Shown: positions 868-31,779 of the stretch, piece by piece
Numbering within the stretch: position 1 is the stretch's first letter
How the letters are laid out: every line of letters starts with the position of its first letter
NCBI RefSeq assembly: GCF_000017305.1
Contig: NC_009664.2
Location: forward strand, 4,590,001 to 4,622,000
Length of the DNA: 32,000 bases
Source: Kineococcus radiotolerans SRS30216 = ATCC BAA-149
GTDB lineage: Bacteria > Actinomycetota > Actinomycetes > Actinomycetales > Kineococcaceae
Direction of reading: 5' to 3'
Made by a program: the position numbers and the translations under genes
The notes under the pieces: model-generated
What the model saw: only the letters and a program-made list of their open reading frames with translations
Told to the model about the DNA's origin: nothing
Databases searched by the model: none

Positions 868-885
868 GGGATGACCGTGAGGTTG
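868..885 (+). repeat. GGGATGACC-core intergenic repeat
   Basis: GGGATGACCGTGAGGTTG, preceded by CGCCCGTATCGC. Lies 45 nt past the stop of the minus-strand gene at 931. Confidence 0.9.
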
Positions 886-930
886 GGCTGAGGTCGGGGG
901 CGGTGAGGCCTGCATGTTGATGGGACGCGC

Positions 931-1770
931 TCAGGCGAGCGACAACGTCTGCACCGCCTGGGAGCCGTCTCGGTAGGTGACGTCGACGTCCACGCCGTGG
1001 ACGGCGTCGAGGAGTTCATCGCCGGGGAACCACAAGGCGAACCGTCCCGCGTTGACAGTGGCGGTCACGTCCCCGTTCGAGGCGCTGCGGTAGACCACCC
1101 CCGTGACGTCATCTCCGGCGAAGCCAGCAGCCACCGACAGCTCTCCGGCGTCGAGGCTGCCGGTGCCCAGATCGGTCGCGCTCAGCTCCCGAGGCCCGGG
1201 AACCGGCACGTCAGGGACACCGATGGAGCCGAACACGTCGCCGGCGAAAAGTGCGCGCGAGTCGTCGGTGATGCACAGCGCCGAGAAGCCGTCTTCTCCG
1301 GTCAGCATCACGGTGGACCATTCCCCTCGGCGCTCGGCGACTGCGACCGCGGCGCCGGCCAGTTGGGGGTAGCGGTCGGCGAAGCCGTCGCTGCTCTGCT
1401 GCTCACGGCAACTGCTCGCCGCGGCGGCGCTGTCGGCGGCGCTGAGGCCAGCCGGGGCCGCGGTCCAGCTGGCGTAGGCACGGTCCCCGCCGAAGGGGGA
1501 GGGCAGGACGAAGACACCGGCGGTGGCTGCAGCTACCAGGCCTGCCGCTAGGACGATGCGCCGGCCCGTGCGCGGGCCCGTGCGCTGCCCGGTGCGCCGA
1601 TCGGGGACGGCGAGGGAACCGGGCAGGTCGCTGGTCAGGATGCGGTCCAGGTCGGCGCGGGCGCGGGCTGCGCCCCTGGAGTCGTCGTCGAGGTGGTCGA
1701 TGGGCGGAGCGGCGTCCAGCGTGCGCAGGGCCGTCTCGATGTCATGGGTCTTGGCGTCGGTGCGGGTCAC
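931..1770 (-). CDS. single-pass membrane protein, putative anti-sigma partner of the upstream ECF sigma
   Basis: GTG at 1770 overlaps the sigma gene stop (GTGA overlap at 1767-1770). Cytoplasmic N-terminus, one TM segment (IVLAAGLVAAATAGVFVL), extracytoplasmic C-terminal domain. Confidence 0.7.
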   Translation of the reverse strand: MTRTDAKTHDIETALRTLDAAPPIDHLDDDSRGAARARADLDRILTSDLPGSLAVPDRRTGQRTGPRTGRRIVLAAGLVAAATAGVFVLPSPFGGDRAYASWTAAPAGLSAADSAAAASSCREQQSSDGFADRYPQLAGAAVAVAERRGEWSTVMLTGEDGFSALCITDDSRALFAGDVFGSIGVPDVPVPGPRELSATDLGTGSLDAGELSVAAGFAGDDVTGVVYRSASNGDVTATVNAGRFALWFPGDELLDAVHGVDVDVTYRDGSQAVQTLSLA

Positions 1771-2348
1771 GGGATGCTCCTGAAGGCGGGGTCGGCGGAC
1801 GGTCGCCGACTGGTGAGCGGGGGGTGGTCCAGGTGCAGGCGCAGAGCGCGCCGGGCTCGGCTCAGCCGTAGGCGGAAGGCCACCGCGGAGATGCCCAGCA
1901 CGCTCGCGGCGCGGGAGGAGTCCAGACCGTCGAAGACGACGAGGCTGAGAGCTTCCTGGTGGACCGCCGACAGCCGTTGCCAGGCGCGGGTCAGGTCGAC
2001 GCGGTTCACGACCCCGTCGGCTTCGCTGCTGGCCTCGCTGCGGAACTTCTCGTCCCGGTCGTGGTGCTCGGCCAGACGAACGCTGAGGGCCAGGTGACGC
2101 CGTTGCCCGCGGGCCTGGTTGAGCAGCACGTTGCGGGTGATGCCGTAGGCCCACGCTCGGACGTCCTCCAGACCTGTCGGTGCCTGCTCCAAGCGGCGCC
2201 ACATCACCAGGAAGGCGTCGGCGACGACGTCTTCAGCTGCTGCGGTGCCCGTGGCGGCGTGGCGCCGATGCACGAAGCGCAGCAGCTGAGGACGAAGCTC
2301 GGCGTAGAGCGCCCGGAAGCGGTCTTCCCGGGTCGGTGGTGGGCTCAT
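1767..2348 (-). CDS. ECF-type RNA polymerase sigma-70 family factor
   Basis: 193 aa from the ATG at 2348. Region 2-like AEDVVADAFLVMWRR and region 4 HTH-like SRAASVLGISAVAFRLRLSRARRAL. Confidence 0.9.
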   Translation of the reverse strand: MSPPPTREDRFRALYAELRPQLLRFVHRRHAATGTAAAEDVVADAFLVMWRRLEQAPTGLEDVRAWAYGITRNVLLNQARGQRRHLALSVRLAEHHDRDEKFRSEASSEADGVVNRVDLTRAWQRLSAVHQEALSLVVFDGLDSSRAASVLGISAVAFRLRLSRARRALRLHLDHPPLTSRRPSADPAFRSIP

Positions 2349-2488
2349 GCTCCCTCCATGTCCGGCACGGAGCCGAGTGTGTCGCTGTTCTTCTCGGCCT
2401 GCTCCTGCACCACTCACCGCGGTCTTCGAGACGTCTGGAGATCGCCATGTCCGCGACGTCGCCAGCCATCGGCGACCGCGCACAACGC

Positions 2489-2506
2489 GGGATGACCGCG
2501 CGTTCG
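2489..2506 (+). repeat. GGGATGACC-core intergenic repeat
   Basis: GCGCACAACGC-GGGATGACCGCGCGTTCG. Lies 28 nt from the stop at 2535 and 140 nt from the sigma start at 2348. Confidence 0.9.
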
Positions 2507-2534
2507 CTAAGCGGTGGTCTCACGTGCAGGAGGC

Positions 2535-2792
2535 TCACGCAGCCTCGGTGCCACCCCGTGTCCGCCACGCGATCCAGGCCGTCGCCATCAGCCACGTCCC
2601 TCCGGCCAGGCCCGCCCCGAAGGCGATCCGAGACACCGGCCAGCTCAGGAAGGCGAGGTCCTCGTGGCCGGCATCTCTGAGGCTGGCCTTCAGGGACGGC
2701 CCGAAGAACAACAGCGCGGCGCACAGCACGACGAGCGACGCCCCACCGAGAGCACGAGCGGTGAGGTGGGGCGTGGACGTGGAAGAGGACAT
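2535..2792 (-). CDS. small membrane protein, hypothetical
   Basis: ATG at 2792 with GGAAAG upstream. 85 aa with two hydrophobic helices (LGGASLVVLCAALLFFG, FGAGLAGGTWLMATAWIAW). Confidence 0.55.
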   Translation of the reverse strand: MSSSTSTPHLTARALGGASLVVLCAALLFFGPSLKASLRDAGHEDLAFLSWPVSRIAFGAGLAGGTWLMATAWIAWRTRGGTEAA

Positions 2793-2910
2793 GCGGTGAT
2801 CTTTCCGCATCGGCTGCATCCAGACGCCTGCGTCGCTGCGGTTCAGGGCTCAACGAACTCATGGTCATCGGCACGAGCGGACGTGTCTGGCCGTCAGCGG
2901 CCGCCCGTAT

Positions 2911-2930
2911 CGCGCCACGACCGCGAGGTC
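2911..2930 (+). repeat. degenerate copy of the intergenic repeat
   Basis: CGCCCGTAT-CGCGCCACGACCGCGAGGTC. Shares its 5' flank with the copy at 868. A GGTCATCGG partner arm lies upstream at about 2863. Confidence 0.6.
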
Positions 2931-2980
2931 AGCACCGGGTGAGGACCCCGGCCAGCATCCGCCGAGGTGCCTACGAGGGT

Positions 2981-3553
2981 TCAGTCGTGGACGACCAGTG
3001 AGGTGGGGAAACCGCCGGGGTCCGGGCACACCCGCACCGCGGCCGGTGGTGGGATGCCCACCACCGCGCTCAGGCTGTAGTCGGTGCAGTCGGTGGTCTC
3101 CCACACCCCGCCCAGGGCGATGCCCAGGTGCGGTGCCGTCCACGGGCGTTCGTCGCGGATCTCGACCAGGACCAGGTGCCCGTGCAGCCAGCGCCCGGCG
3201 GGCAACCGCAGGTCCAGCGCCTGGCCGGCCTGGACGGTCTGCTCGCCGATGAACCACCGCCGGCCGTGCTCGGTGGCCCGTTCCTCCAGGACGGTGGCGG
3301 GGTCCGGGCCGACGAGGCGTTCCCAGTGCTCACGGGCCCACACCTCGTAGCAGGCTTCGTCCAGCTCCGGGGTCCACGGTCCGCGGACGACGTCAGACCC
3401 GGTCCAGCCGCAGGCGCACCGGGGGAAGAGCGGCGAGCCGTCGGTACCGGTGTCGTTATCGGTGTCGTTATTAGTGTCGGTGACACTGGCGGCGGGCTGC
3501 ACGGTGCCCGCGATGCGCACTCCGACCTCGTGGCTGTGGTCGTCCATGCCCAT
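2981..3553 (-). CDS. hypothetical protein
   Basis: 190-aa ORF. ATG at 3553 preceded by GAGGAGG at about 7 nt. High GC3. No family recognised. Confidence 0.7.
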   Translation of the reverse strand: MGMDDHSHEVGVRIAGTVQPAASVTDTNNDTDNDTGTDGSPLFPRCACGWTGSDVVRGPWTPELDEACYEVWAREHWERLVGPDPATVLEERATEHGRRWFIGEQTVQAGQALDLRLPAGRWLHGHLVLVEIRDERPWTAPHLGIALGGVWETTDCTDYSLSAVVGIPPPAAVRVCPDPGGFPTSLVVHD

Positions 3554-3616
3554 GCTGCGACCTCCTCGACGTCCTGCTGCAAGCCTAGGGACAGTGATCG
3601 CTGCGCGTCAGGTGAT

Positions 3617-3630
3617 CGATGAACCTCAAG
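3617..3630 (+). repeat. possible strongly degenerate repeat copy
   Basis: CGATGAACCTCAAG matches about 10/15 positions of GGATGACCGTGAAGT. It is the only candidate in this intergenic gap. Confidence 0.3.
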
Positions 3631-3744
3631 CACGCGGCGGACCATCTGCGATGCGTCCTGTGAGCGCGTTCGACACGGTCGTGGTCGTGGTCGTGGTCGC
3701 GCCCGCCGCGTTGCCCGTCGGGGCGGCGGCGAGGGGCTCGTGGC

Positions 3745-4410
3745 CTACAGCTCGCCTCGTGCGACGCGCCGTTGTCCCTCGTTGGCCTCCAGGGCGGCCA
3801 CGACGGCTGAGTCCTCATCCGCGGCGAGCAGGGCCACGACGTCATCGGGTAGGCGGTCATCACCGGCCAGGTACCAGCGCGCGATGGGCGAGCCCTCCCG
3901 AGCCAGGCGGTGGGCCCGCTGCAGGTCCAGGGGGAGTCTCTCGGAGGGGGTGTCGCCTCGCTCGATGGCCAGCTGCAGCAACGCGGGCAACCGGTACTTG
4001 CCCAGCTCGTCCAGCTGACGCTGTGGTGTCACGTTCAGGGAGAGGACCGCGTCTGTGCCGGACCAGGTGCTCCAGTCCGGGTCCGCCTCGCCGGGCTGCA
4101 CCGCGCCCGCCTGCCCGGAGTCAATCAGGGCGCGCAGTGCGCTGGCGAGGTGCAGTAGTCGCTGGTGGGCGTGCTCGTCGTCGCCGTGGGTGAAGATCGA
4201 CAGGTTCGGAGCGTGGTCGCCGGATTCCACCGTCCAAGAGGTGTCCGTGGCGTGGGACCAGGATCCGCTCGTCGTGCCACGTACCCAGCCGGTTTCGGTG
4301 AGAGCGGTGGCCATCGCCTCGACGCTGCTGAGCAGGCCGGTACCGGTGGCGCGCTGCAGCAGCAGCAGGACACCTGCGGGGACCTCGTGGGGCTGGGTGG
4401 CGATGGTCAC
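3745..4410 (-). CDS. hypothetical protein
   Basis: GTG at 4410 with AAAGGA 5 nt upstream. 221 aa. C-terminal part resembles helical repeats (DDVVALLAADEDSAVVAALEANE). Confidence 0.65.
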   Translation of the reverse strand: MTIATQPHEVPAGVLLLLQRATGTGLLSSVEAMATALTETGWVRGTTSGSWSHATDTSWTVESGDHAPNLSIFTHGDDEHAHQRLLHLASALRALIDSGQAGAVQPGEADPDWSTWSGTDAVLSLNVTPQRQLDELGKYRLPALLQLAIERGDTPSERLPLDLQRAHRLAREGSPIARWYLAGDDRLPDDVVALLAADEDSAVVAALEANEGQRRVARGEL

Positions 4411-4585
4411 GACGATCCTTTGAGAGGCGGCGGTGTGCGGACCCGATGATCGTGCAGGAGCCGCTGCGCCGATGTCGAGGCACGCTCGCTCTCCGGAGAT
4501 ACGGAGGTGATCGTCGTGCTCGGCTTGCATCCGGACATCGGCGAGACTGCAAGATCATCGATGACCGGGACCGCGCCTGGGTCGC

Positions 4586-4603
4586 GGGATGACCGTGAGG
4601 TTC
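4586..4603 (+). repeat. GGGATGACC-core intergenic repeat
   Basis: GGGATGACCGTGAGGTTC. A partial tandem copy CGATGACCGGGACCG lies at 4559-4573 and a GATCATCG arm at 4553-4560. Confidence 0.9.
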
Positions 4604-4780
4604 TGTATGCCGAAATGAGGCCGCGCGACCCGGTCGATCCAGCCCGGGCGAGCATCCCCCCGAAGCGGTGGGGGTGCTTGTTTGCGCTGACGCGCAGTCA
4701 CTTCTTCCGTTCAGGGTTATCTCATGCGGTTTAACCAGTGGCCTGGGCGCTGAAGTGCAACGCCGGAGCAGGCGGCTACT

Positions 4781-4864
4781 GGGGGAGGCTCACTGGGGGA
4801 GGCTCACTGGGGGAGGCTCACTGGGGGAGGCTCACTGGGGGAGGCTCACTGGGGGAGGCTCACT
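4781..4864. repeat. perfect tandem repeat, 14 bp x 6
   Basis: GGGGGAGGCTCACT repeated six times without mismatch. The unit is not a multiple of 3. Intergenic, ending 18 nt before the PP2C gene stop. Confidence 0.95.
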
Positions 4865-4880
4865 GATGAACGCGCAGGAG
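4863..4880 (+). repeat. degenerate copy of the intergenic repeat
   Basis: CTGATGAACGCGCAGGAG resembles the GGGATGAACGCGAGGTG variant at 10632. Ends 2 nt from the stop codon at 4883. Confidence 0.45.
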
Positions 4881-4882
4881 GA

Positions 4883-6085
4883 TCAGCGGCGCTGTTGTCG
4901 GTGTCGCGTGTCGGTGTGGGTCTCGGTGCCTTGGTTGGGCACGGTGCTTGCTGCGGGGGCGTATTCAATGGCGAGGATGGTGACGTCGTCGGTGGCGGGG
5001 CCTTGAACCCAGTCGGTGATGGCGTTGCGCAGCTTGGCCAGGCCCTCGGGCAGGGTTCCGGTGCCCAGGCTGGGGGCGGCGAGTCGGGTCAGGGGGAAGA
5101 AGGCGCCGTCGCGGGGTCGGCGGGCTTCGGTGACGCCGTCGGTGTAGAGCACGATGCGGTCCCCGGGTTCCAAGGCAATCTGGGTGGTGTCACTGTCGGT
5201 GGGGTCGCCGTTGGTGGGGTCGCTCTCGGTGGTCAGGCCCAGCGGGGGTGCGGGTCGAGCAGGGTCCAGGCTGATCGCGGCGCCGGCTCGGATCAGTAGG
5301 GCTGGCGGGTGTCCGGCGTTGAGGATGCGCAGCTGGCCTGCGTCGACTTCGGCGAGGAGGGCGGTGACGAAGTCCTCCTCCGCCCCTGCCCGCGCGACGG
5401 CCCGGTCGAGGTCGTGGGCCAGGTCGGTGAGGTCGTGTCGTTCGTGGGCGCGTTCGCGGAAGGAGCCCAGGACGGTGGCGGCGAGGTGAACAGCGTCGAG
5501 GCCGTGCCCGCGGACGTCGGCGAGGAGAAGGCGGATGCCGTGGGGGGTGGTGAAGGCGGCGTAGGCGTCGCCGCCGATGTCGGCTTCGGTGTCGGCGGAG
5601 TCGTAGGAGGCGGCGACGTTGAGGGGGCCCAGGCGCTTGGGGATGGGCGGCAGGATCGCGCTTTGGGCGATCGCGGCGATGCGGGTGACGCGCAGCAGGT
5701 GCTCCTCGCGCCCTGTACGTGAGTGGGCGGTGAAGGTGGAGAGGACGGTGCAGGTGACGATGATGGACAGGCGCACGAGCTGGGTGTCGAGCGCATCGGC
5801 GTACTGGCCTTGCGCCGCGCCCAGGGCGGCGCCTTCGGCGAGGGCAATCAGGCCGTAGGCGGCGGTGGTGCGGGCCGGTAGGGAGCTGGCGGCCAGCAGG
5901 GGCGCGATGATCACGAAGGCCAGCAGGACGACGGTGGGGCCAGTCAGCAGGTCGATCAAGGCGACGAGGACGAGCACCGCAGCGGGCAGCCACGCGCGGA
6001 GCCGCTGCGTCCATGCCCTGCGGGGCTGGTGCCTCCATCCCCCGCGGGGAGCAGGGTGCGGTCGCAGGGCCGGCTGCAGCACCAT
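4883..6085 (-). CDS. membrane-anchored PP2C-family (SpoIIE-like) serine/threonine phosphatase
   Basis: C-terminal PP2C/SpoIIE signatures (DVRGHGLDAVHLAA, LRILNAGHPPALL, IVLYTDGVTEAR, DDVTILAIE). Hydrophobic N-terminal half. Start set at ATG 6085, though the ORF is open to 6241. Confidence 0.85.
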   Translation of the reverse strand: MVLQPALRPHPAPRGGWRHQPRRAWTQRLRAWLPAAVLVLVALIDLLTGPTVVLLAFVIIAPLLAASSLPARTTAAYGLIALAEGAALGAAQGQYADALDTQLVRLSIIVTCTVLSTFTAHSRTGREEHLLRVTRIAAIAQSAILPPIPKRLGPLNVAASYDSADTEADIGGDAYAAFTTPHGIRLLLADVRGHGLDAVHLAATVLGSFRERAHERHDLTDLAHDLDRAVARAGAEEDFVTALLAEVDAGQLRILNAGHPPALLIRAGAAISLDPARPAPPLGLTTESDPTNGDPTDSDTTQIALEPGDRIVLYTDGVTEARRPRDGAFFPLTRLAAPSLGTGTLPEGLAKLRNAITDWVQGPATDDVTILAIEYAPAASTVPNQGTETHTDTRHRQQRR

Positions 6086-6874: not shown

Positions 6875-7038
6875 CGGGTCTCCTCGGTGCGGGCTGCGGT
6901 GGGCGAGCGGTAGGCAGGTTCGCACGCCGGACCTGCTGGGCGCAGCCATTTGCGATCTTGCTGGAGGGTCCGTAGTGGTCGCGCGGTCATCGCCAGGACC
7001 GCGCTGTCGTTGGCCGCTGGCAGCAGCGCGCACAACGC

Positions 7039-7756: not shown

Positions 7757-7897
7757 GGTCTCGACCCTATGCAGAGGACCACTCCGGACGCATGAGGGTC
7801 GTGGGCCAGCGCATGGTGGTGATGACCAGGTGTCAGGTGCGAACCGCAATCGTCTGTCTTCCGAGACGATCGTGAGGTCCTCGACGTCCTGGCCAGC

Positions 7898-7915
7898 GGG
7901 ATGACCGTGAAGTCG
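7898..7915 (+). repeat. GGGATGACC-core intergenic repeat
   Basis: GGGATGACCGTGAAGTCG. Flanked by degenerate copies GACGATCGTGAGGTCC (7865-7880) and GGTACGACCGCGAGGGCG (7944-7961). Confidence 0.9.
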
Positions 7916-8083
7916 CAGCCCGCCGTGACCGCGTCTGCAGCGCGGTACGACCGCGAGGGCGACCCTGGTGGCCCCCACTACGTCCAGGCTGGATCTCGAC
8001 CTCGTTCCCGGCAGAAGGTTGCCCCTGCCGGGACCGATCCGCGCCGGTGGAAGCGCTTCTTCCTCCCCCTCCTGGTCGAGTTT

Positions 8084-8530: not shown

Positions 8531-9408
8531 CAGCCCCACGCCCCGCTGGCGGCGACTCGGCGGGCGTAGTCGTCGAAGGAGCGCGGTGCGCGGCCCAGCG
8601 CTTCCTGGACACCGGTACTCAAACACTCCCCCCGCCCGTCGAGGACCTCGGTGAACAGCTAGGTCAGCAGCGCCACCACGTCGGCGGGCACACCCTGCTC
8701 GCTCAAGGACTCCCGGTAGCTCTCAACGGAGACCTGCTCGTAGTCCACGCGCCGGTCCAGGGCAGAGGAGATCGACGTCAGCGCCGCGGGGAAGGTCAGC
8801 AGGTGCGGGCCGCTCACCTCATACGTCGCCCCGGTGTGACGGTGGTCCAGGAGGGCCGCGGCGGCGACGTCGGCGACGTCCTCGGCGTCGACGAATGGCT
8901 CGGCCACCGGCCCGACGGGCAGGCGCACCACGCCGGCGCGGACGTGGTCGCGGAGGAACTTCTCGTCGAAGTCCTGCATGAAGAAGCTGGCCCGCACCAC
9001 CACCGTGGCCGGGGCGACCTCGCGAACACGCGCCTCGGCACGCTGCGCCTCCTCCTCACCGCGCCCCGAGAGCAGCACCAGTCGCTGCACCCCGCGCTCC
9101 ACGGCGGTCCGGGCGAAGGCGGTGACGACCTCGGGGGCGCCGGGGACGGCGAGGTCTGGGGCGTAGGCGACGTAGGCCGCGCCCGCGCCGTCGAGGACCG
9201 CTCCCCAGGTGTCCGGGTCGCCCCACTGGAACGAGGGGTGGGCCGCCCGCGAGGCCACTCGCACCTCCCGTCCGCCGCGCCGAAGCCTTTCGGCCACCCG
9301 CCGCCCGGTAGTGCCCGTACCGCCGAGGAGGAGGACAGGTCGCGGGTCGGCGGCCGCGGCTGCGCCGGTCGTGCTGCTGGTGCCGGTCGTGCTGCTCGTA
9401 TCGGTCAT
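8530..9408 (-). pseudogene. NmrA-like / NAD(P)H-binding SDR-family gene interrupted by an in-frame TAG
   Basis: ATG at 9408. Rossmann motif LLLGGTGTTGRRV. In-frame TAG at 8659-8661. The same frame continues 43 codons (LFTEVLDGRGECLSTGVQEALGRAPRSFDDYARRVAASGAWG) to a TGA at 8530-8532 that abuts the next gene's ATG. Confidence 0.75.
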
Positions 9409-9501
9409 GGACCCAGCCAACGGCCCGCGGGTGCGTGCGCGACATGCTCCGGAACCGCACCCGGATGCGCGGGCGTCTCACACCGCGCCCACCCCCATCG
9501 G

Positions 9502-10530
9502 ATGCGGGGCTACGGTGGGGAGCCGTGGACCCCCTCGCGAACCTGCTCGCCGGCCCCCGTGCCCGCGGGGCGTTCGTGCTGCGCTGCGACCTGGACCCCC
9601 CCGTGGGCGCTGCGGGTGCACGACCGCGCCCCGCTGACCGTCCTGGCCGTCGTGACCGGGTCGGCCTGGGTGCTGCGCCACGGCACGGCACCGCAGCGGA
9701 TCGTCTCCGGGGACGTGGCGGTGGTCCGCGGCCCGGACCCCTACGTCGTAGCCGACGACCCGGACACCCCGCCGCAGGCGCTCATCGACGTCGACCAGCG
9801 CTGCACCACCCTCGACGGCGTCGGGGTGCCCCTGGGCTGGCGGGGCGCTGGGGTCTGGGGCAACAGAGACGGCGACGGCGGCACCCAACTGCTCACCGGC
9901 ACCTACACCGAGCACGGGGCGCTCAACCGGCGGCTGCTCGACGCCCTGCCGGCCCTGGTCGTCCTCCGGGCCGACGCCGCGACCGCCCCCGTCCTGACCT
10001 GGCTGACGCAAGAGGTCACCCACCACGCCCCCGGGCAGGAGGCGGTCCTGGACCGGTTGCTGGACCTGCTGCTCGTGACGGCGTTGCGGGCCTGGTTCGA
10101 CACCTCTCGTGCCACCGCACCCGGCTGGTACACCGCCGCCGCCGACCCCGTCGTCGGCCCGGCCCTGCGGCTGCTGCAGGACCATCCGGAGCACCCTTGG
10201 ACCATCGGCTCGCTCGCCGCGGCGGCCGCCACCAGCCGGGCGACCCTGGCCCGCCGCTTCACCGCCCTCCTCGGCCGGCCGCCCATGGGTTACCTCACCA
10301 CCTGGCGTCTCGATCTAGCCGCCGACCTCCTCCTCGAGCCCGGCACAACGCTCACCGCCGTCGCCCGCCGGGTCGGGTACGGGTCCCCCTACGCCCTCAG
10401 CGCCGCCTTCACCCGCCAATTCGGCATCAGCCCCACCCAGCACCGGGATGCCGGCACCCGTGGCGCCGGCCATGAGGCACTCAGCGGCACAACGACCCAC
10501 CACGCGCATGTGAGCACCGGGCGGCGGTAG
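9502..10530 (+). CDS. AraC-family transcriptional regulator (cupin-type N-terminal domain), probably frameshifted near its 5' end
   Basis: C-terminal AraC HTH (SRATLARRFTALLGRPPMGYLTTWRLDLAADLL, GYGSPYALSAAFTRQFGISP). The expected N-terminus VDPLANLLAGPRARGAFVLRCDLDPP is in another frame (GTG 9525) and joins the main frame at a C7 run, 9596-9602. Confidence 0.8.
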   Translation: MRGYGGEPWTPSRTCSPAPVPAGRSCCAATWTPPWALRVHDRAPLTVLAVVTGSAWVLRHGTAPQRIVSGDVAVVRGPDPYVVADDPDTPPQALIDVDQRCTTLDGVGVPLGWRGAGVWGNRDGDGGTQLLTGTYTEHGALNRRLLDALPALVVLRADAATAPVLTWLTQEVTHHAPGQEAVLDRLLDLLLVTALRAWFDTSRATAPGWYTAAADPVVGPALRLLQDHPEHPWTIGSLAAAAATSRATLARRFTALLGRPPMGYLTTWRLDLAADLLLEPGTTLTAVARRVGYGSPYALSAAFTRQFGISPTQHRDAGTRGAGHEALSGTTTHHAHVSTGRR

Positions 10531-10631
10531 CCGACAGGGTTGCTCGTTTACGCCCACCAGCACCCTCAGGTGCTGCTCGCTCTTCGTCATGTGCGGACGT
10601 CTCCAGTTCGCCGAGGTCGCGCACTGAGCGC

Positions 10632-10649
10632 GGGATGAACGCGAGGTGT
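10632..10649 (+). repeat. GGGATGACC-core intergenic repeat (GGGATGAAC variant)
   Basis: GGGATGAACGCGAGGTGT. Lies 46 nt from the stop at 10696. Confidence 0.8.
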
Positions 10650-10695
10650 CACCCAGAGCCGAGGACTTCGACCCAGACGGTGGTTGCCCGTGTCG

Positions 10696-11193
10696 TCACC
10701 GAGCCGGGAATGGCGCGATGTCGCTGCTCCACTGCTGCGCTGCCGTGAGCAGCTGGGCGCGGTCGACCCGAAACGGGATGCTGTACTCGTAGATGCGGGG
10801 CTTGGGACCCGCCGACCAGTCGGGCTTGCCGGCCACCGCTTCCAGGGACAGGTGCACGCGCAGCATCGTCTGCTCGCCCTCGACCGCGGCCACGCTGAAG
10901 GCCAGGTTGGGCTCAATGAACATCAGCGTGCTCGTCACCATGTCAGAGCCGGGGTCGTCACTCGGCTCAAGGCGTCCTTCGGCCGCGGCGTGCAGCCAGT
11001 CCAGCAGCTCCTGCGCCTCCCACGTGGTCAGGCTCGGGTCGTCGAAGGTCCATATCTCACCGGCGGCGGTGCGCACCCTGCCGTGCACTATGACCCAGTT
11101 GGCGTCCAGTTCGTCGGCAGTGGTGAGGTCTGGGTACTCGTAGCCGCTAAGACGCAGCTCGAAGGCGGCGCCGTCGGTGGAGGTGAGCTTCAC
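10696..11193 (-). CDS. hypothetical protein, WapI-like immunity-protein pattern (tentative)
   Basis: 165 aa, GTG start. FELRLSGYEYPD...DELDANWVIVHGRV...LTTWEAQELLDWL resembles the WapI-family layout from memory. No search was run. Confidence 0.6.
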   Translation of the reverse strand: MKLTSTDGAAFELRLSGYEYPDLTTADELDANWVIVHGRVRTAAGEIWTFDDPSLTTWEAQELLDWLHAAAEGRLEPSDDPGSDMVTSTLMFIEPNLAFSVAAVEGEQTMLRVHLSLEAVAGKPDWSAGPKPRIYEYSIPFRVDRAQLLTAAQQWSSDIAPFPAR

Positions 11194-11328
11194 CTGGTGA
11201 GTGTCCCGCGTCTGCGCTGGCGGGGAGGCTCGACGCGGGGCTTGGTCCCGCTCCGACCGGGTGCTCGAAACCGCTCGCTCTTCGCCATGACCGCAAGATC
11301 ATCGCCCGGCCAACTGCGCGCGGACGGC

Positions 11329-11346
11329 GGGATGACCGTGACGTCG
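11329..11346 (+). repeat. GGGATGACC-core intergenic repeat
   Basis: CGGACGGC-GGGATGACCGTGACGTCG. Partner arm GATCATCGCC at 11297-11306. Confidence 0.9.
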
Positions 11347-17903: not shown

Positions 17904-17929
17904 CCGGTCGTGTACGACCGCCCGGATCG

Positions 17930-17947
17930 CGGTATGACCGTGCGTCG
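17930..17947 (+). repeat. GGGATGACC-core intergenic repeat (GGTATGACC variant)
   Basis: CCGGATCG-CGGTATGACCGTGCGTCG. Second copy in the same gap, 44 nt after the previous one. Confidence 0.8.
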
Positions 17948-17982
17948 CCCATCCCCTTATCCCGGCTGCCTACGCTGGGCCC

Positions 17983-18950: not shown

Positions 18951-18988
18951 GTCGTGCGTCCTGAGTGGGTCAGTGCCGCGCTGAACGT

Positions 18989-19006
18989 GGGATGGCCGCG
19001 CAATCT
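18989..19006 (+). repeat. GGGATGACC-core intergenic repeat (GGGATGGCC variant)
   Basis: GGGATGGCCGCGCAATCT (compare GGGATGACCGCGCGTTCG at 2489). Lies 11 nt from the stop at 19018. Confidence 0.7.
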
Positions 19007-20941: not shown

Positions 20942-20980
20942 AGTCAGCACGCTATGGGGCTGGGACTTCGCACCCAAGGC

Positions 20981-20998
20981 GGGATGACCGTGAAGTCG
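20981..20998 (+). repeat. GGGATGACC-core intergenic repeat
   Basis: GGGATGACCGTGAAGTCG. Lies 11 nt from the stop at 21010 and 39 nt from the start at 20941. Confidence 0.9.
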
Positions 20999-21009
20999 AG
21001 GTGTTCGGG

Positions 21010-21633: not shown

Positions 21634-21859
21634 GGTCGCGGTACCTGAGTCGTGATCACCTGGCGAGTCTTCCAGGAGGGTGAGGTGCGTCGAGGCCTCT
21701 GCATGGACCATCCCCGAGACCACCACACCGTGCCGCGGGGGATGGAGGGCTTGAGCGGTGTGGAGGGCTCGGGCGGATGATCGCCCGGCTTTCATCTCGC
21801 GCCTGGACACCTGCGGATGGGTGAAGCCGTCAGCCGCCGACGGTAACGGCGCACACCGC

Positions 21860-21877
21860 GGGATGACCGTGAAGTGC
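21860..21877 (+). repeat. GGGATGACC-core intergenic repeat
   Basis: GCGCACACCGC-GGGATGACCGTGAAGTGC. Confidence 0.9.
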
Positions 21878-25419: not shown

Positions 25420-25554
25420 GCCCTCTAGTGTCCGTAGGGGCCTGGATGGTTACAGGGGTGGGCCACCAATCTGGCGTGGAGGCGCCCGTCCCTGGTGCAC
25501 CCGCTGCTCGGCGCCACCCTGATGCCGCTGGCCACCAGCGACCGCCCGGACCGC

Positions 25555-25624
25555 GGGATGACCGTGCGCTCTCCCACCGCGGGATGACCGTGCGCCCTCG
25601 CACCGCGGGATGACTGCACACTCA
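25555..25624 (+). repeat. three tandem copies of the intergenic repeat (26-nt period)
   Basis: ACCGC-GGGATGACCGTGCGCTCTCCC / ACCGC-GGGATGACCGTGCGCCCTCGC / ACCGC-GGGATGACTGCACACTCA, with cores at 25555, 25581 and 25607. Ends 10 nt from the stop at 25635. Confidence 0.9.
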
Positions 25625-26162: not shown

Positions 26163-26254
26163 GGTCTCAGTGTCGCCGAGCCGGCAGGTGCGGGGAGGTC
26201 CTTCTGGGGAGTCGGTGACGCTGCAGCGGTGGGAGCGTCACGTCACACCACCGC

Positions 26255-26272
26255 GGGATGACTGGAAGCTCG
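26255..26272 (+). repeat. GGGATGACC-core intergenic repeat (GGGATGACT variant)
   Basis: CACCACCGC-GGGATGACTGGAAGCTCG, in a divergent intergenic gap. Confidence 0.8.
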
Positions 26273-26773
26273 CCGCAGGTGCTGCGGGTGAGCGAGGATC
26301 CTCGAGTGCCTGATGCGCCGCTTCACGTCCGCGCGCGGGTGCGCCACGAGCCGGACCGCTCCTACGCGGTGCTGGTTGAGGGCCCTGAGGGGGAGGTGCT
26401 GGTGGGCACCACCCGCCGCACCGGTGAGGTGCTGTCGGTGGGACGTGAGGGCGCAGCCCGGGTGTTCGCGGTGGCGGTGGGGCAGATCGCGCGGGACTTC
26501 GACGTAGCGTTCCCGCGCCCGCCCTATGGGCGTGATGGGCAGTGGGTGCGCATCGTCGCGGTGGAGGATTCGAGCGAGGCTGAGGAGGTGGAGATGCTGG
26601 GGGTTGCGGGGCAGGCGCACTGGTTCGGGGCGGAGGCGGCGTGGTTCGTGACGGTGCCCGGGTACGGCACGGGCATCTACCCCGGTGAGCTGCTGGACTT
26701 CGAGGCGGTGATCAGTGCGGAAGAGGAAGCGGCGCTGCGGGCCTACACCAGCGGGGGCGCTGACCGGTCCTGA
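26258..26773 (+). CDS. hypothetical protein
   Basis: High-GC3 ORF. The first in-frame start is the ATG inside the repeat (26258). GTG 26279 or 26288 are equally possible. Confidence 0.65.
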   Translation: MTGSSPQVLRVSEDPRVPDAPLHVRARVRHEPDRSYAVLVEGPEGEVLVGTTRRTGEVLSVGREGAARVFAVAVGQIARDFDVAFPRPPYGRDGQWVRIVAVEDSSEAEEVEMLGVAGQAHWFGAEAAWFVTVPGYGTGIYPGELLDFEAVISAEEEAALRAYTSGGADRS

Positions 26774-26807
26774 CCCATCCTAATCCGTCTCCATCCGTCT
26801 CCATCCG

Positions 26808-26825
26808 TCCTGACCGTGCATGGCT
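26808..26825 (+). repeat. degenerate copy of the intergenic repeat
   Basis: TCCTGACCGTGCATGGCT retains TGACCGTG. Preceded by a small 10-bp tandem ATCCGTCTCC x2.8 (26786-26809). Confidence 0.4.
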
Positions 26826-26988
26826 GAGCGGTAGACCGCCCACGGCGCCAGGGCCACGGAGGTGCTGGACATGGGGAACCACCCCGTCCGCTGCAGCGAT
26901 TGATGGGCCGAGGACGTGGTGGTGCCCGTTGTGGGCTGGTGGGGTCGTACTGCGGGCCCCAGCATGCTGCTCGATCTAGCGTGGCGGG

Positions 26989-27363
26989 GTGACCGCTCTC
27001 CCCGACGATGCGCGAGGCCTCAGCGATGACGAGGCCGGCGTCCTGCAGCTGCTGCTGCGCGCGGACTTCCCCGGTGCGGTGCAGCTGCGGGCGCAGGCCG
27101 TGCACCTGCTCGCCGCGCGTGGCTGTACCTGTCCCTGCGGAAGCATCGATTTGTTCGTCACCGATCCGGCTGCTCCTCGGGCGTTAACGGTGGGCTGCAC
27201 GCCAGTGGAGGCCAGCTTCGACGCCGGTCAGGTGGGCCCCTGCTCTGTTGTGCTCTTCGTGCGTGATGGGCTTCTGGACCGGTTGGAGGTCGTCTACTAC
27301 GACGACCCGCTGGCGATGCCGAGTCCGGAGCAGATTGCGTCGATCTCGGTGCGACGTGCCTGA
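26989..27363 (+). CDS. hypothetical protein
   Basis: 124 aa, GTG start, high GC3. No family recognised. Confidence 0.6.
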   Translation: MTALPDDARGLSDDEAGVLQLLLRADFPGAVQLRAQAVHLLAARGCTCPCGSIDLFVTDPAAPRALTVGCTPVEASFDAGQVGPCSVVLFVRDGLLDRLEVVYYDDPLAMPSPEQIASISVRRA

Positions 27364-27443
27364 TGCGGGGTTGCCCGGTGGGAGATGGTCGTCTGCTTGC
27401 GTCGTGTTGGCGCTGTCCTTGAGGCCCTGATCGCGCACAACGC

Positions 27444-27461
27444 GGGATGACCGGACGGTTC
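27444..27461 (+). repeat. GGGATGACC-core intergenic repeat
   Basis: GCGCACAACGC-GGGATGACCGGACGGTTC. Confidence 0.9.
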
Positions 27462-28896: not shown

Positions 28897-28992
28897 GGTG
28901 CGACCCTAGGACGGCGTGACCGAGACCCCTAGGATCACTCGCTCTTTGGCACGAGCGCGACGTCGCGACCCGTCGCTGACGGACCGGATCGC

Positions 28993-29852: not shown

Positions 29853-30401
29853 GTGGCCGTGGACGGTCGTGGCGCGTCGGGGAAGTCCACGCTGGCCGAG
29901 CGCCTGCGCCGGAGGGTGAGCCGGTCGGTGGTCGTCCACACCGACGACGTCGCCTGGTACGAGTCCTTCTTCGGGTGGGGAGGTCTGCTGGCGGAGCACG
30001 TCCTGCGCCCCGTGCGCGGCGGGGAGGCGGTGTACTTCCGTCCGCCGGCGTGGACGAGGGAGGGACGAGAGGGAGCGATCGAGGTCCCTTCCGGCCTGGA
30101 CCTCGTCATCGTCGAGGGCGTCGGAGCCGCTCAACGGGAGCTGGCCGATGTCATCGATGCCACGGTGTGGGTGCAGTCCGACTTCGCTCAGGCCGAGGAG
30201 CGGGGCATTGCCCGTGACAGCGCGCTGGGCGTCAACGGGGATCCGGTGGAGACCGTTGCATTCTGGCATGAGTGGATGGCCGAGGAGTTGCGCTTCCTGC
30301 AGCAGCAGCGGCCGTGGGAACGGGCCTGTCTGATCGTCGCCGGAACCCCGCTCATCCCGTTGGACGATAACCAGGTCGCTGTCGCATCCGGCCCCCTGTG
30401 A
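29853..30401 (+). CDS. P-loop NTPase / uridine-kinase-like kinase
   Basis: Walker A GRGASGKST and Walker B-like LVIVEGVG. The first canonical start is GTG 29853, but the frame is open and protein-like from 29781. Confidence 0.75.
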   Translation: MAVDGRGASGKSTLAERLRRRVSRSVVVHTDDVAWYESFFGWGGLLAEHVLRPVRGGEAVYFRPPAWTREGREGAIEVPSGLDLVIVEGVGAAQRELADVIDATVWVQSDFAQAEERGIARDSALGVNGDPVETVAFWHEWMAEELRFLQQQRPWERACLIVAGTPLIPLDDNQVAVASGPL

Positions 30402-30461
30402 ACCACGCGGCCATCGACAGGTCAGGACGTTCAGGGCCGGCCATGATCGCGCGCTGAGTGC

Positions 30462-30479
30462 GGGATGACCGGATGTTGG
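30462..30479 (+). repeat. GGGATGACC-core intergenic repeat
   Basis: GGGATGACCGGATGTTGG. Lies 60 nt after the stop at 30401. Confidence 0.9.
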
Positions 30480-30587
30480 TGGGGGCGCGATCGCACCGCC
30501 CCTGCCACCCTGCAGGCGGGGACCGATGAGGTTAAACGACATGGGCAGTCTGCCCGTCACCACCACATCAACCCCCAGGAGTTCGAC

Positions 30588-30875
30588 ATGATCATCGTCG
30601 CTGGTCACCTCGGCGTCGCCCACGAGGAGCGCGAGGCGTACTTGGCTGGCTGCTGTGACGTGGTGCAGCGGGCTCGGGGTGCTGAGGGCTGCCTGGATTT
30701 CACCATCGCAGCGGACCTCGTGGACGCCGGTCGGATCAACGTCTTCGAGCGTTGGGCGTCGCAGGCAGCCGTGGAGGCCTTCCGTGGCAGCGGTCCGAGC
30801 GAGGAGCAGGGCGCGGCGATCCGGTCGGCCTCGGTGGCCGAGTACGACGTGTCCAGGGCACGCTTCTTGACGTGA
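30588..30875 (+). CDS. ABM-domain (antibiotic biosynthesis monooxygenase-like) protein
   Basis: ATG at 30588 preceded by CAGGAG. 95 aa. MIIVAGHLGV...CLDFTIAADLVDAGRINVFERWASQAAVEAF is typical of the ABM fold. Confidence 0.75.
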   Translation: MIIVAGHLGVAHEEREAYLAGCCDVVQRARGAEGCLDFTIAADLVDAGRINVFERWASQAAVEAFRGSGPSEEQGAAIRSASVAEYDVSRARFLT

Positions 30876-30949
30876 CGGCGTGCGCGTGGCCCACGCGGGC
30901 ATCGGCGAGACCGTGACGTCCCGGGCGGCGGCGAAAGCGCGCACAACGC

Positions 30950-30967
30950 GGGATGACCGGACATTCC
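30950..30967 (+). repeat. GGGATGACC-core intergenic repeat
   Basis: GCGCACAACGC-GGGATGACCGGACATTCC. Degenerate copy GCGAGACCGTGACGTCC at 30905-30921. Confidence 0.9.
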
Positions 30968-31029
30968 CCGTGCTGGTCCAGGCGCCGTTTCCCCAGCCGG
31001 AGGACGGCTGCCACGGTGGAGGGGTAAGC

Positions 31030-31701
31030 ATGCACAGCGAGGACTCCTTCCGATCCCGGCCTTTGAACGGCCTCCCGCTGCCGGCCTCGACCGCGGCCGC
31101 CGTGGAGTCGTTGCTGCCTCCGCGCGGGCGTCCTACCCGAGGTCCGGGCGAGCGGGGCCGGCTGGGGCACTTCGAGCCGATCCCGGAAGAAGCCGCAGCT
31201 GAGTGGCTGGGCTTCGCCCCGCCCACCTTGCCCAGCCTGAGCGGGTCCGGGTTCCGTCGGCACTTCGCACGCCAAGGTGGGCGCGACCTCGTCGCGCGGG
31301 CGGACCTGACTCGTGGGGAGAGTGCCGCGGTCTACGTCTTCTACTTGCCGGCGGGCTCGGCGTGGCGGGAGGAGACGAGGTTCGTCGAAGCACGCCGGGA
31401 GGGTCTGACGTTCTTGTGGCTGCGGGCGGGGTACGGGGTGCCCTGGCCTGAGGAGGAAGGAGGACCGGTGGGAGTGGAGGAGACCGCGACCATTGGTCGT
31501 GACCCTGCCAGTGGTGACTTCCTCACGCTGACGGTGGGCAGCACCCGGGTCGGGGTCCAGTACCAGCGAGGGGTGACTCGCCTGGCGTGGTCGTACCGTT
31601 CCCAGGACGCCGACTTCAACGTCACGGTGATGAGTGGGCGCTCACCGCGGGCGTCGGTGGAGATGCTGGTGAGCGACCGCGGCGCGCTCTACCTGGGCTG
31701 A
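31030..31701 (+). CDS. hypothetical protein
   Basis: ATG at 31030 preceded by GGAGGGG. 223 aa, high GC3. Confidence 0.65.
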   Translation: MHSEDSFRSRPLNGLPLPASTAAAVESLLPPRGRPTRGPGERGRLGHFEPIPEEAAAEWLGFAPPTLPSLSGSGFRRHFARQGGRDLVARADLTRGESAAVYVFYLPAGSAWREETRFVEARREGLTFLWLRAGYGVPWPEEEGGPVGVEETATIGRDPASGDFLTLTVGSTRVGVQYQRGVTRLAWSYRSQDADFNVTVMSGRSPRASVEMLVSDRGALYLG

Positions 31702-31761
31702 GACATGCTCCCTGCGTGAGGAGCTGTCGCATCACCGGTCACCGGAACCCGCCCAAATTGC

Positions 31762-31779
31762 GGGATGACCGTGAACTAG
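31762..31779 (+). repeat. GGGATGACC-core intergenic repeat
   Basis: GGGATGACCGTGAACTAG. Lies 60 nt after the stop at 31701. Confidence 0.9.

What the first reader, a model, noticed from the sequence alone, without database searches (positions are those of the whole stretch)
868..31779. Uniformly oriented conserved repeat in almost every intergenic gap: an integron-like cassette array without canonical attC
I count 34 recognisable copies of GG(G/C/T)ATGAC(C)G followed by TGA(A/G/C)GTCG-like sequence (variants GCGAGGTCG, GGGCGTC, GGACGGTTC), plus at least 12 degenerate copies. All are on the + strand, and I found no full-length copy in the opposite orientation. All are intergenic, apart from the copy at 26255 whose ATG is the first in-frame start of ORF 26258. 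There is about one locus per kb. The copies delimit about 30 units, each holding one gene or one small operon of unrelated function. Gaps without a copy are operon junctions (1767, 8530, 24796), one convergent gap (335-436) and one divergent gap (9408-9502). A short oriented recombination-site-like repeat between small heterogeneous genes is the signature of integron cassette arrays. To my knowledge integrons are not established in Actinobacteria. The sequence also has no GTTRRRY/RYYYAAC attC ends, and cassette genes point both ways. It could therefore be a different gene-capture or shuffling system, or an unusually dense, oriented REP-like or terminator-like element.
Basis: partly seen in the sequence, partly recalled or inferred. 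Interest (0 to 1): 0.9.

Follow-up and report, generated by a model that had tools for sequence, protein, structure and literature searches.

The report
Oriented repeat bounding Kineococcus gene cassettes
A conserved 32-base site sits in one orientation between nearly all genes of this Kineococcus radiotolerans region, and gene units bounded by it turn up with different neighbours in other species. The region therefore behaves like an integron cassette array, yet it lacks every defining integron part, in a phylum where integrons are considered absent.

Summary
The window, from the Kineococcus radiotolerans SRS30216 chromosome, carries 32 strong and 4 weak copies of an asymmetric 32-nt site. 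All are on the + strand and none on the - strand. The consensus is A.CGC.C..A.CGC-GGGATGACCG-TGArGTCG.

The site is specific to the genus Kineococcus. In 68 loci from more than 15 species there are 298 sites, about one per 0.6 kb, and no locus has a site on its minority strand.

Site polarity is independent of gene direction (116 genes on the site strand, 118 on the other). That rules out a promoter, terminator or ribosome-binding role. The site strand is the G-rich strand at third codon positions in 37 of 40 loci, which I infer to be the leading strand. In two genomes the array abuts the chromosomal dif site, with sites pointing toward it.

Homology blocks between species, and between distant arrays within one genome, start and end at the sites. 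About 55% of block ends lie within 40 nt of a site, against 9% expected. The neighbours of these blocks differ.

This is not an integron. There is no IntI integrase, no attC hairpin and no gene co-orientation. I identified no dedicated recombinase.

Best reading (confidence 0.5): these are recombination sites of a new, sedentary cassette-array system.

The parts
854..885 (+). cassette-boundary site, 37.4 bits
   Evidence: PWM scan; exact core
2475..2506 (+). site, 37.1 bits; degenerate second copy 45 nt upstream
2900..2931 (+). weak/degenerate site, 7.9 bits
   Evidence: family D16
4572..4603 (+). site, 33.3 bits
6321..6352 (+). site, 35.5 bits
7025..7056 (+). site, 35.9 bits (core GGCATGACCG)
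7884..7915 (+). site, 34.1 bits; degenerate copy at -35
7930..7961 (+). weak site, 8.7 bits
10618..10649 (+). site, 23.6 bits; left boundary of the WapI-immunity cassette shared with L085
11270..11301 (+). weak second copy, 5.1 bits, 45 nt upstream of the next site
11315..11346 (+). site, 37.5 bits; right boundary of the cassette shared with L085
14542..14573 (+). site, 38.8 bits
16450..16481 (+). site, 34.7 bits
17353..17384 (+). site, 32.4 bits
17872..17903 (+). site, 17.9 bits; tandem with the next at 45-nt spacing
17917..17948 (+). site, 22.7 bits
18736..18767 (+). site, 18.8 bits; left boundary of a 250-nt unit that is multicopy in other species
18975..19006 (+). site, 16.6 bits; right boundary of the 250-nt unit and left boundary of the deaminase/ASCH cassette shared with L067 and L093
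19827..19858 (+). site, 41.8 bits
19870..19901 (+). weak site, 5.6 bits
20458..20489 (+). site, 41.4 bits
20967..20998 (+). site, 36.6 bits; left boundary of the cassette shared with L085 (87% identity)
21846..21877 (+). site, 37.0 bits
22279..22310 (+). site, 21.5 bits
23674..23705 (+). site, 35.8 bits
25541..25624 (+). three tandem sites at 26-nt period (35.9, 24.7 and 16.9 bits)
26241..26272 (+). degenerate site, 13.0 bits; overlaps a possible start of ORF 26258-26773
27430..27461 (+). site, 32.7 bits
28283..28314 (+). site, 28.4 bits
28979..29010 (+). site, 27.9 bits
29645..29676 (+). site, 37.5 bits
30448..30479 (+). site, 24.6 bits
30936..30967 (+). site, 33.1 bits
31748..31779 (+). site, 33.4 bits; last in the window. 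The array continues beyond both window ends
   Evidence: a site 1.9 kb left of the window start is seen in L121

Best explanation
The 32-bp asymmetric site is the recombination site of a Kineococcus-specific, chromosomally sedentary gene-cassette array. Its consensus is A.CGC.C..A.CGC-GGGATGACCG-TGArGTCG.

Whatever lies between two consecutive sites is a cassette that assorts independently of its neighbours. A cassette is 0.25-3 kb and holds one to three genes in either direction, with room for their own promoters.

I propose that cassettes are excised and inserted by conservative site-specific recombination, with the crossover inside the invariant GCGGGATGACCG. This would explain three things. 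All sites in an array are direct repeats. The left flank of a site travels with the unit on its left. The right flank travels with the unit on its right.

The recombinase would act in trans. It is not encoded in the window and I did not identify it.

The arrays are co-oriented with replication, as large sedentary chromosomal integrons are. In at least two genomes they lie next to the terminus dif site.

Shown: the site, its polarity, its intergenic position, its restriction to the genus, cassette boundaries at sites, cassette reshuffling and duplication, and the link between site polarity and strand composition.

Inferred: that the exchange is site-specific rather than homologous, and that an enzyme recognises the site.
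For: (1) The window has 32 sites on the + strand and none on the - strand. Across 68 Kineococcus loci (461 kb) there are 298 sites and none on the minority strand of any locus. Median spacing is 610 nt.

(2) The site is genus-specific. A scan of 185,579 species genomes returned arrays only from Kineococcus, and only single matches elsewhere.

(3) Among 84 homology blocks of at least 200 nt between array loci, 56% of starts and 55% of ends lie within 40 nt of a site, against 9% for random positions. The modal start offset is -2 and the modal end offset is +9 to +17. DNA outside the blocks is unrelated.

(4) The same cassettes occur with different neighbours. Window 10630-11338 and 20979-21809 are 10 kb apart here but 3 kb apart in L085. 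A 360-nt cassette occurs in L016, L022, L076 and L069.

(5) Within Kineococcus sp. DHX-1, units 92-95% identical are shared between arrays at 2.2 Mb and 4.7 Mb and are bounded by sites. Window genes also have paralogues roughly 115 genes away.

(6) Site polarity is independent of gene direction, 116 to 118. The site therefore works at the DNA level and not on transcripts.

(7) Content is typical of a cassette reservoir. 150 array ORFs hit 90 Pfam families, including APH, GNAT, methyltransferases, MST/DinB, GrpB, NUDIX, Phd/YefM, WapI immunity and ECF sigma factors.

(8) The site strand is the GC3 G-rich strand in 37 of 40 loci. Arrays abut dif, with sites pointing toward it, in L106 and L131. 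Large chromosomal integrons are likewise polar with respect to replication (PMC5371416).
Against: No recombinase was tied to the arrays. The window has none apart from an IS3 transposase.

The Xer-like recombinase beside the DHX-1 array is linked to dif in six of six Kineococcus loci. It is also dif-linked in Longispora and Nocardiopsis, which show no arrays there. Three Kineococcus dif loci have no sites within 4-10 kb.

The breakpoint data cannot separate site-specific exchange from rare homologous exchange within the 12-32 nt of identity.

I observed no excised circle and no clean single-cassette insertion or deletion between near-identical strains.

Tandem 26-28-nt units and the second copies at -35/-45 are not predicted by a simple one-site model.

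The loci compared may descend from only a few ancestral arrays. The polarity statistics are therefore not 40 independent events.
Confidence: 0.5

Rival explanations
1. A polar, REP-like protein-binding element with a chromosomal role. The role could be terminus-region organisation, a permissive-orientation replication barrier, or guidance of a translocase. In this view the element itself is not mobile. The cassette-like mosaic arises because the many identical 12-32-nt copies support occasional homologous exchange.
For: The site strand matches the G-rich strand in 37 of 40 loci, and sites point toward dif. The site is short, linear and unstructured, like a double-stranded DNA binding site. No recombinase was found.
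Against: The sites are confined to variable accessory arrays. They are absent from 10 kb of core DNA on the other side of dif, and absent around dif in three species. A chromosome-organising element should not be dispensable in this way. One site per gene junction, with block ends exactly at sites, is much sharper than homologous recombination on 30 bp would be expected to give.
Confidence: 0.22
2. Accretion at dif by the dif-adjacent Xer-like recombinase. Small circular elements would be inserted beside dif one after another, as happens with mobile elements that exploit Xer recombination (IMEX) or with tandem ICE/CIME accretion. The repeat would be the junction site left by each insertion.
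For: In L106 (DHX-1) and L131 the array ends 0.3-1 kb from dif. The recombinase gene lies beyond dif and reads away from the array, the layout of intI-attI-cassettes. DNA to the left of dif is unrelated between six species right up to the dif edge, which marks it as an insertion hot spot.
Against: The repeat shares nothing with the dif-like site beyond the pentamer ATGAC (compared by eye using the and 59 sequences). DHX-1 has a second array 2.5 Mb from dif. The recombinase and dif occur without arrays in three Kineococcus species and in other genera.
Confidence: 0.1
3. Ends or targets of a single-strand (HUH/Y1) transposition system, like IS200/IS605, REP-RAYT or IS91. Its strand specificity would set the orientation relative to replication.
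For: The replication-linked polarity is what single-stranded DNA transposons show. This is my own knowledge of the IS608 literature.
Against: There is no conserved hairpin. Flank complementarity equals that of random pairs. Fold z-scores scatter from +0.9 to -3.0 with different structures in each copy. Mutual information gives no helix. No inverted pairs occur. No HUH or transposase family is among the common array families.
Confidence: 0.07
4. [quoted passage not shown]
For: There is an array of direct-repeat sites between small heterogeneous genes.
Against: No IntI is present. The array-adjacent recombinase scores 46 bits against TIGR02249, whose cutoff is 265. There is no attC-type hairpin. 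The site is 32 nt, linear and asymmetric. Genes are not co-oriented. Rfam gave no match.
Confidence: 0.02
5. A transcription or translation signal: a promoter, an operator of the stoperator type, a terminator or a 5' leader.
For: The site is intergenic, with about one copy per gene.
Against: Site polarity is unrelated to gene direction, 116 to 118. The site lies 14-80 nt after stop codons and 80-250 nt before start codons whichever way the gene points. There is no T-tract or stable stem.
Confidence: 0.03

Closest known systems
Sedentary chromosomal integrons (e.g. the Vibrio superintegron) and CALINs
   Same: Long arrays of direct-repeat sites, one per small accessory gene unit. Cassettes are reshuffled and duplicated. 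Content includes toxin-antitoxin, immunity and modification enzymes. The array is polar with respect to replication (PMC5371416).
   Different: No IntI integrase. The site is a 32-nt linear asymmetric sequence, not a 57-140-nt folded attC with R''/L''-L'/R' boxes. Genes point either way in equal numbers. The host is in Actinomycetota, a clade reported as lacking integrons (bioRxiv 10.1101/2024.07.02.601686).
pdif / Xer modules of Acinetobacter plasmids and IMEX arrays at dif (from my own knowledge)
   Same: Gene modules are bounded by short recombination sites. In two genomes the array is physically next to dif and a Xer-family recombinase.
   Different: The Kineococcus site does not resemble the local dif-like site. 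All sites are direct repeats, not alternating XerC/D-XerD/C. Arrays also occur far from dif.
REP/BIME/REPIN elements with RAYT transposases (from my own knowledge)
   Same: Short, abundant, strictly intergenic and lineage-specific.
   Different: No palindrome and no inverted pairs. Polarity is uniform over more than 30 kb. The sites are clustered in variable arrays and coincide with the boundaries of shuffled gene units.
Stoperators of cluster A mycobacteriophages (from my own knowledge)
   Same: Asymmetric short sites in many short intergenic gaps of an actinobacterial genome, all in one orientation.
   Different: Stoperators are oriented relative to transcription and lie in a phage genome. 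Here polarity ignores gene direction, the context is chromosomal, and there is no phage match.
KOPS / architecture-imparting polar sequences (from my own knowledge)
   Same: On the G-rich (inferred leading) strand and pointing toward dif.
   Different: KOPS are 8-mers spread genome-wide, including inside genes. This site is 32 nt, intergenic only and confined to accessory arrays.

Membership tests
Integron | IntI-type tyrosine recombinase (TIGR02249, with the IntI-specific insertion) at one end of the array | tested here: not met
   No tyrosine recombinase is in the window. The only array-adjacent one (L106:5375-6400) scores 46 bits against a cutoff of 265, over the C-terminus only.
Integron | attC sites: imperfect inverted repeats (R''-L''/L'-R', GTTRRRY) that fold as a single-strand hairpin | tested here: not met
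   Flank complementarity equals that of random pairs. No common fold appears on either strand. No helix-type covariation is seen. The consensus is asymmetric and linear.
Integron | Sites in direct orientation, separating single-gene units | tested here: met
   298 sites, with none on the minority strand of any of 68 loci; median spacing 610 nt.
Integron | Cassettes promoterless and co-oriented for expression from the array promoter (Pc) | tested here: not met
   116 genes lie on the site strand and 118 on the other.
Integron | Cassettes are independently mobile units bounded by the sites | tested here: met
   Comparative evidence only: block ends fall at sites, 55% against 9% expected; neighbours differ; copies are shared between arrays within a genome. 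Mobility itself was not observed.
REP / RAYT | Palindromic REP hairpin, usually in inverted pairs, with a RAYT gene in the genome | tested here: not met
   No palindrome is present and no opposite-strand copies occur. No RAYT was seen in the fetched loci, but whole genomes were not searched.
Xer/dif-type site (pdif module, IMEX) | 28-nt site with an XerC arm, 6-nt spacer and XerD arm, resembling the host dif | tested here: not met
   The Kineococcus dif-like site is TGTCATAATGTnGATTATCGGCG. By-eye alignment to the repeat shares only ATGAC.
KOPS-like polar sequence | Short motif skewed toward dif on both replichores, genome-wide and including coding DNA | tested here: inconclusive
   Polarity toward dif, on the G-rich strand, is met. 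The length, the intergenic restriction and the absence from core DNA near dif argue against it. The other replichore could not be examined.
Transcription signal (promoter/terminator/operator) | Fixed orientation and distance relative to the regulated gene | tested here: not met
   Polarity is independent of gene direction.

The most novel reading that the evidence does not exclude
Kineococcus carries a previously undescribed class of gene-capture system. It would be functionally analogous to a sedentary chromosomal integron but built from different parts. The recombination site is a short, linear, double-stranded 32-bp sequence recognised by a non-IntI recombinase. Cassettes carry their own promoters and point either way. 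Arrays reach roughly 150 genes, lie near the replication terminus and are co-oriented with replication. This would be the first native cassette-array system in Actinomycetota.
Probability: 0.4. Interest if true: 0.9.

Novelty: new variant of a known kind. Interest (0 to 1): 0.8.

Why it matters
Integrons are the standard example of a bacterial gene-capture platform. They are thought to be absent from Actinomycetota, and all known examples depend on IntI and folded attC sites.

An array that shows the same population-level behaviour with an unrelated, much simpler site would have two consequences. It would show that cassette-array architecture has evolved more than once. It would also give a new, short recombination site, and eventually its enzyme, as a tool for high-GC actinobacteria.

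The finding also flags a large reservoir of accessory genes (kinases, acetyltransferases, immunity proteins, sigma/anti-sigma pairs) in a radiation-resistant genus. Tools based on attC and IntI models, such as IntegronFinder, would not be expected to detect such arrays.

Tried and rejected
- Phage or plasmid origin. Megablast of 25 kb found no phage match and only an IS3 element among plasmids. A viral-contig pattern scan gave two single chance matches. A distant plasmid search found nothing relevant.
- Known RNA family. Rfam at E up to 1 gave no match.
- Promoter or ribosome-binding reading, prompted by the mainly - strand genes of the window. Rejected once 45 loci showed a 116:118 gene orientation.
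- Hairpin or attC-like structure. Mutual information, cognate versus array-adjacent flank complementarity and single-stranded DNA folding of 10 sites on both strands were all negative.
- Recombinase at array ends. Clustering of flank ORFs found no recurrent boundary gene. The Xer-like recombinase next to the DHX-1 array looked like an intI analogue. It turned out to be a dif-linked gene that also occurs without arrays.
- A second tyrosine recombinase (L019, L009, L096). It lies inside a 4-kb unit with IS remnants and looks like a separate mobile element.
- An alternative repeat in the site-less variable regions left of dif. None was found.
- Walking to the ends of the K. radiotolerans array. 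The complete genome is not in the gene-position index, so only short Logan contigs were returned.
- Literature. The K. radiotolerans genome paper mentions neither repeats nor integrons. No paper links Kineococcus with an intergenic repeat.

Full report
**Source and observation.** The window is 70% G+C. Exact protein look-ups place it on the Kineococcus radiotolerans SRS30216 chromosome. It runs from about Krad_2372 (window 31030-31701, +) to Krad_2415 (window 436-792, -).

The pattern GGBATGACSG occurs 28 times, always on the + strand, against 0.71 expected. Anchoring on the core shows that conservation extends from -14 to +17. I built a position weight matrix (PWM) from 189 non-tandem copies taken from the window and related loci. 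It finds 32 sites of at least 12 bits and 4 weaker ones in the window, all on the + strand and none on the - strand. The consensus is A.CGC.C..A.cGC-GGGATGACCG-TGArGTCG.

**Genes and content.** Gene calling by GC content at third codon positions (GC3) shows that most window genes are on the - strand. Several + strand genes (17991-18686, 26258-27363, 29853-31701) are flanked by + sites as well.

The content is heterogeneous:
- two ECF sigma factors, each followed by an overlapping downstream gene that may be its anti-sigma partner (no family match)
- a SpoIIE phosphatase
- a tyrosine phosphatase
- anthrone oxygenase plus an NmrA-like protein
- a WapI-like immunity protein
- a DJ-1/PfpI protein
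- an ASCH-domain protein
- an antibiotic biosynthesis monooxygenase, a uridine-kinase-like protein and many proteins with no family

An IS3-family element interrupts the array at 14877-16155. There is no match to phages or plasmids and none to Rfam.

**Distribution.** A pattern scan of one genome per species (185,579 species) was truncated at 120 rows. It returned mostly Kineococcus contigs, from more than 15 species. These typically carried several matches per 8 kb, always on one strand within a locus. Other taxa gave single matches.

With the PWM, 68 Kineococcus loci (461 kb) hold 298 sites and none on the minority strand of any locus. Median spacing is 610 nt. 45 spacings are under 60 nt; these are tandem forms of 26-28, 35 or 45-47 nt.

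In the complete genome of Kineococcus sp. DHX-1, arrays lie at 2.176-2.204 Mb and at 4.704-4.719 Mb. In K. radiotolerans a site lies 1.9 kb left of the window. Paralogues of window genes sit about 115 genes away (Krad_~2257/8, Krad_2283, Krad_2358). From this I infer that the array is much larger than the window, but I did not show it.

**What the site is not.**
- Across 45 array loci, 116 genes lie on the site strand and 118 on the other. The site therefore has no fixed relation to transcription or translation. The - strand bias of the window is local.
- Mutual information gives no helix.
- The two flanks of a site are no more complementary than random pairs. This holds whether the flanks are taken as they sit in the array or as they would join in an excised circle.
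- Ten sites folded as single-stranded DNA on both strands give unrelated structures, with z-scores from +0.9 to -3.0.

The site is therefore not attC-like and not REP-like.

**Cassette behaviour.** BLASTN of the window against the other loci shows blocks that begin and end at sites and have unrelated flanks:
- window 10630-11338 and 20979-21809 match L085, but are 3 kb apart there instead of 10 kb
- window 17962-18641 matches L102
- window 18967-19819 matches L067 and L093
- a 250-nt unit at 18750-19000 matches two copies in L102, one in L069 and one in L101

I then compared all oriented loci against each other. Of 84 blocks of at least 200 nt, 56% of starts and 55% of ends lie within 40 nt of a site, against 9% for random positions. 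The modal start offset is -2. The modal end offset is +9 to +17.

The left flank of a site is inherited with the unit on its left and the right flank with the unit on its right. Any exchange must therefore fall within the invariant GCGGGATGACCG.

Within DHX-1, units 300-440 nt long and 92-95% identical are shared between the two distant arrays. Each encodes one small protein.

Pfam scanning of 150 ORFs from inside arrays gave 90 families. They include APH kinases, GNAT acetyltransferases, MFS transporters, methyltransferases, MST/DinB, GrpB, NUDIX and Phd/YefM. No recombinase is among the recurrent families.

**Polarity and replication.** Genes on the site strand have a mean GC3 skew of -0.006. 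Genes on the other strand average -0.207. The sign of the difference is the same in 37 of 40 loci. The site strand is therefore the G-rich strand.

A 341-aa Xer-like tyrosine recombinase lies next to the DHX-1 array end, and its gene reads away from the array. It scores 147 bits against XerC (cutoff 335) and 46 bits against integron integrase (cutoff 265).

It always has a dif-like site, TGTCATAATGTnGATTATCGGCG, 430-540 nt upstream. This holds in six of six Kineococcus loci. In DHX-1 that site is at 2.205 Mb of a 4.81-Mb chromosome.

The GC3 strand effect is negative to the right of the site in four of four loci and positive to the left in two of four. This is consistent with the replication terminus.

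In L106 (DHX-1) and L131 (a metagenomic Kineococcus-like contig), arrays end 0.3-1 kb to the left of dif, with sites pointing toward it. The site therefore reads 5' to 3' on the leading strand in the direction of fork movement. Large sedentary chromosomal integrons are also polar relative to replication (25 of 30; PMC5371416).

*Caveat.* The loci may descend from only a few ancestral arrays, so these are not 40 independent events.

**The recombinase question.** The dif-adjacent recombinase is not array-specific:
- K. rhizosphaerae, NBC_00420 and NPDC059986 have the recombinase and dif but no site within 4-10 kb, and no alternative repeat there.
- Homologues at 55-61% identity in Longispora and Nocardiopsis also sit near dif-like sites, among ordinary genes.

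DNA immediately to the left of dif is unrelated between six species right up to the dif edge. This marks the position as an insertion hot spot, but the repeat does not resemble dif. Another tyrosine recombinase, seen in L019, L009 and L096, lies in a 4-kb unit with IS remnants. No enzyme is therefore assigned.

**Interpretation.** The data fit a sedentary cassette array whose units recombine at a short, asymmetric, double-stranded site. It works like an integron or CALIN but fails the integron membership tests: no IntI, no attC and no gene co-orientation.

The main rival is a polar protein-binding element of the terminus-proximal chromosome, with homologous exchange at its many copies. It explains the polarity. 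It does not explain the restriction to variable DNA or the sharpness of the boundaries.

Accretion at dif by the Xer-like enzyme, a single-strand transposition system, a canonical integron and a transcription signal are progressively less likely. I give the site-specific cassette model a confidence of 0.5.

**Novelty.** The K. radiotolerans genome paper does not mention the repeat. My searches found no description of it. Actinomycetota are cited as a clade without integrons. I rate the finding as a new variant of a known kind. There is a substantial chance that it is a categorically new capture system once the enzyme is known.

Noticed in passing
window 14877-16155: An IS3-family insertion sequence sits inside the array, between sites 14542 and 16450. 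It has two overlapping - strand ORFs, 15788-16132 and 14919-15803. It is 78% identical to a region of Pseudonocardia plasmids (annotated there as alpha/beta hydrolase) and 72-83% identical to IS3 family transposases on Streptomyces plasmids.
   Followed up: partly
window 4764-4889: A perfect 14-nt tandem repeat, ACTGGGGGAGGCTC, in about 7 copies. It lies in the gap between site 4572-4603 and the stop codon of the SpoIIE phosphatase gene at 4883. Its function is unknown.
   Followed up: no
window 18750-19000 (also L102:1298-1556 and 1578-1829; oriented coordinates L069 2746-3000 and L101 ~3526-3751): A 250-nt site-bounded unit with no convincing ORF. It contains a strong conserved hairpin, GGCCGCCGGGC-N6-GCCCGGCGGCC. 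It is 80-90% conserved and multicopy in other Kineococcus species. It could be a non-coding RNA cassette. Rfam gave no match.
   Followed up: partly
L106:4865-6400; L125:9564-11029; L127:3793-5312; L129:9446-11017; L131:9467-11017; L132:390-1990: A conserved module: a dif-like site (TGTCATAATGTnGATTATCGGCG), a Xer-like tyrosine recombinase that scores below the XerC and XerD cutoffs, and a 157-172-aa ORF with no Pfam hit. The ORF is present in five of the six loci and absent in L132. Homologues in Longispora (L136) and Nocardiopsis (L135) are also near dif-like sites. This looks like a dif-linked third Xer paralogue in Actinomycetota, reminiscent of XerS/difSL.
   Followed up: partly
alignment A1 (400 nt left of dif in six Kineococcus loci): Sequence similarity between species stops exactly at the left (XerD-arm) edge of dif. 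In every species the DNA on that side is different accessory genes (APH, GNAT, methyltransferases, toxin-antitoxin, transposases). The position is a hypervariable insertion hot spot.
   Followed up: partly
L106:4220-4865; L129:9265-9446; L131 ~9380-9440: Repeated TGAGAC-containing motifs, such as TTGGACAGatcTGAGAC, cluster in the few hundred bases to the left of dif in several species. They are unexplained and could be accessory or orienting sequences.
   Followed up: no
window 25541-25624; L106:1442-1588 and 2840-2932; L074 and L101: Head-to-tail mini-units of 26-28 nt: the core plus a short palindrome such as TGCGC-TTC-GCGCA. Up to six copies occur in a row. They may be empty cassettes or slippage products.
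   Followed up: partly
window, e.g. 2434-2460, 7000-7020, 11270-11301, 28940-28965; 40 of 170 strong sites overall: A second, degenerate direct copy (consensus CATCGnCAnGACCGCGACGTCGCC) lies 35 or 44-47 nt upstream of about a quarter of the sites. It travels with the unit on the left.
   Followed up: partly
window 29853-30875 and 31030-31701: These genes have identical or near-identical paralogues elsewhere in K. radiotolerans. ABS03738/ABS03739 match ABS03853/ABS03854. The 223-aa protein has copies Krad_2283, Krad_2358 and about Krad_2372. This suggests cassette duplication across a region of roughly 150 genes.
   Followed up: partly
L019 (oriented coordinates) 952-2001; also L009 and L096: A second type of tyrosine recombinase lies in or beside arrays in three species, always on the strand opposite the sites. 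It is next to an IS fragment, an alpha/beta hydrolase and a MerR regulator. It is probably a separate mobile element.
   Followed up: partly
L115 (640-nt contig binned as Gammaproteobacteria) and L105 (binned as Limnocylindria): Both contigs carry three or four same-strand copies of the core. They are probably mis-binned Kineococcus-like contigs rather than true occurrences outside the genus.
   Followed up: no
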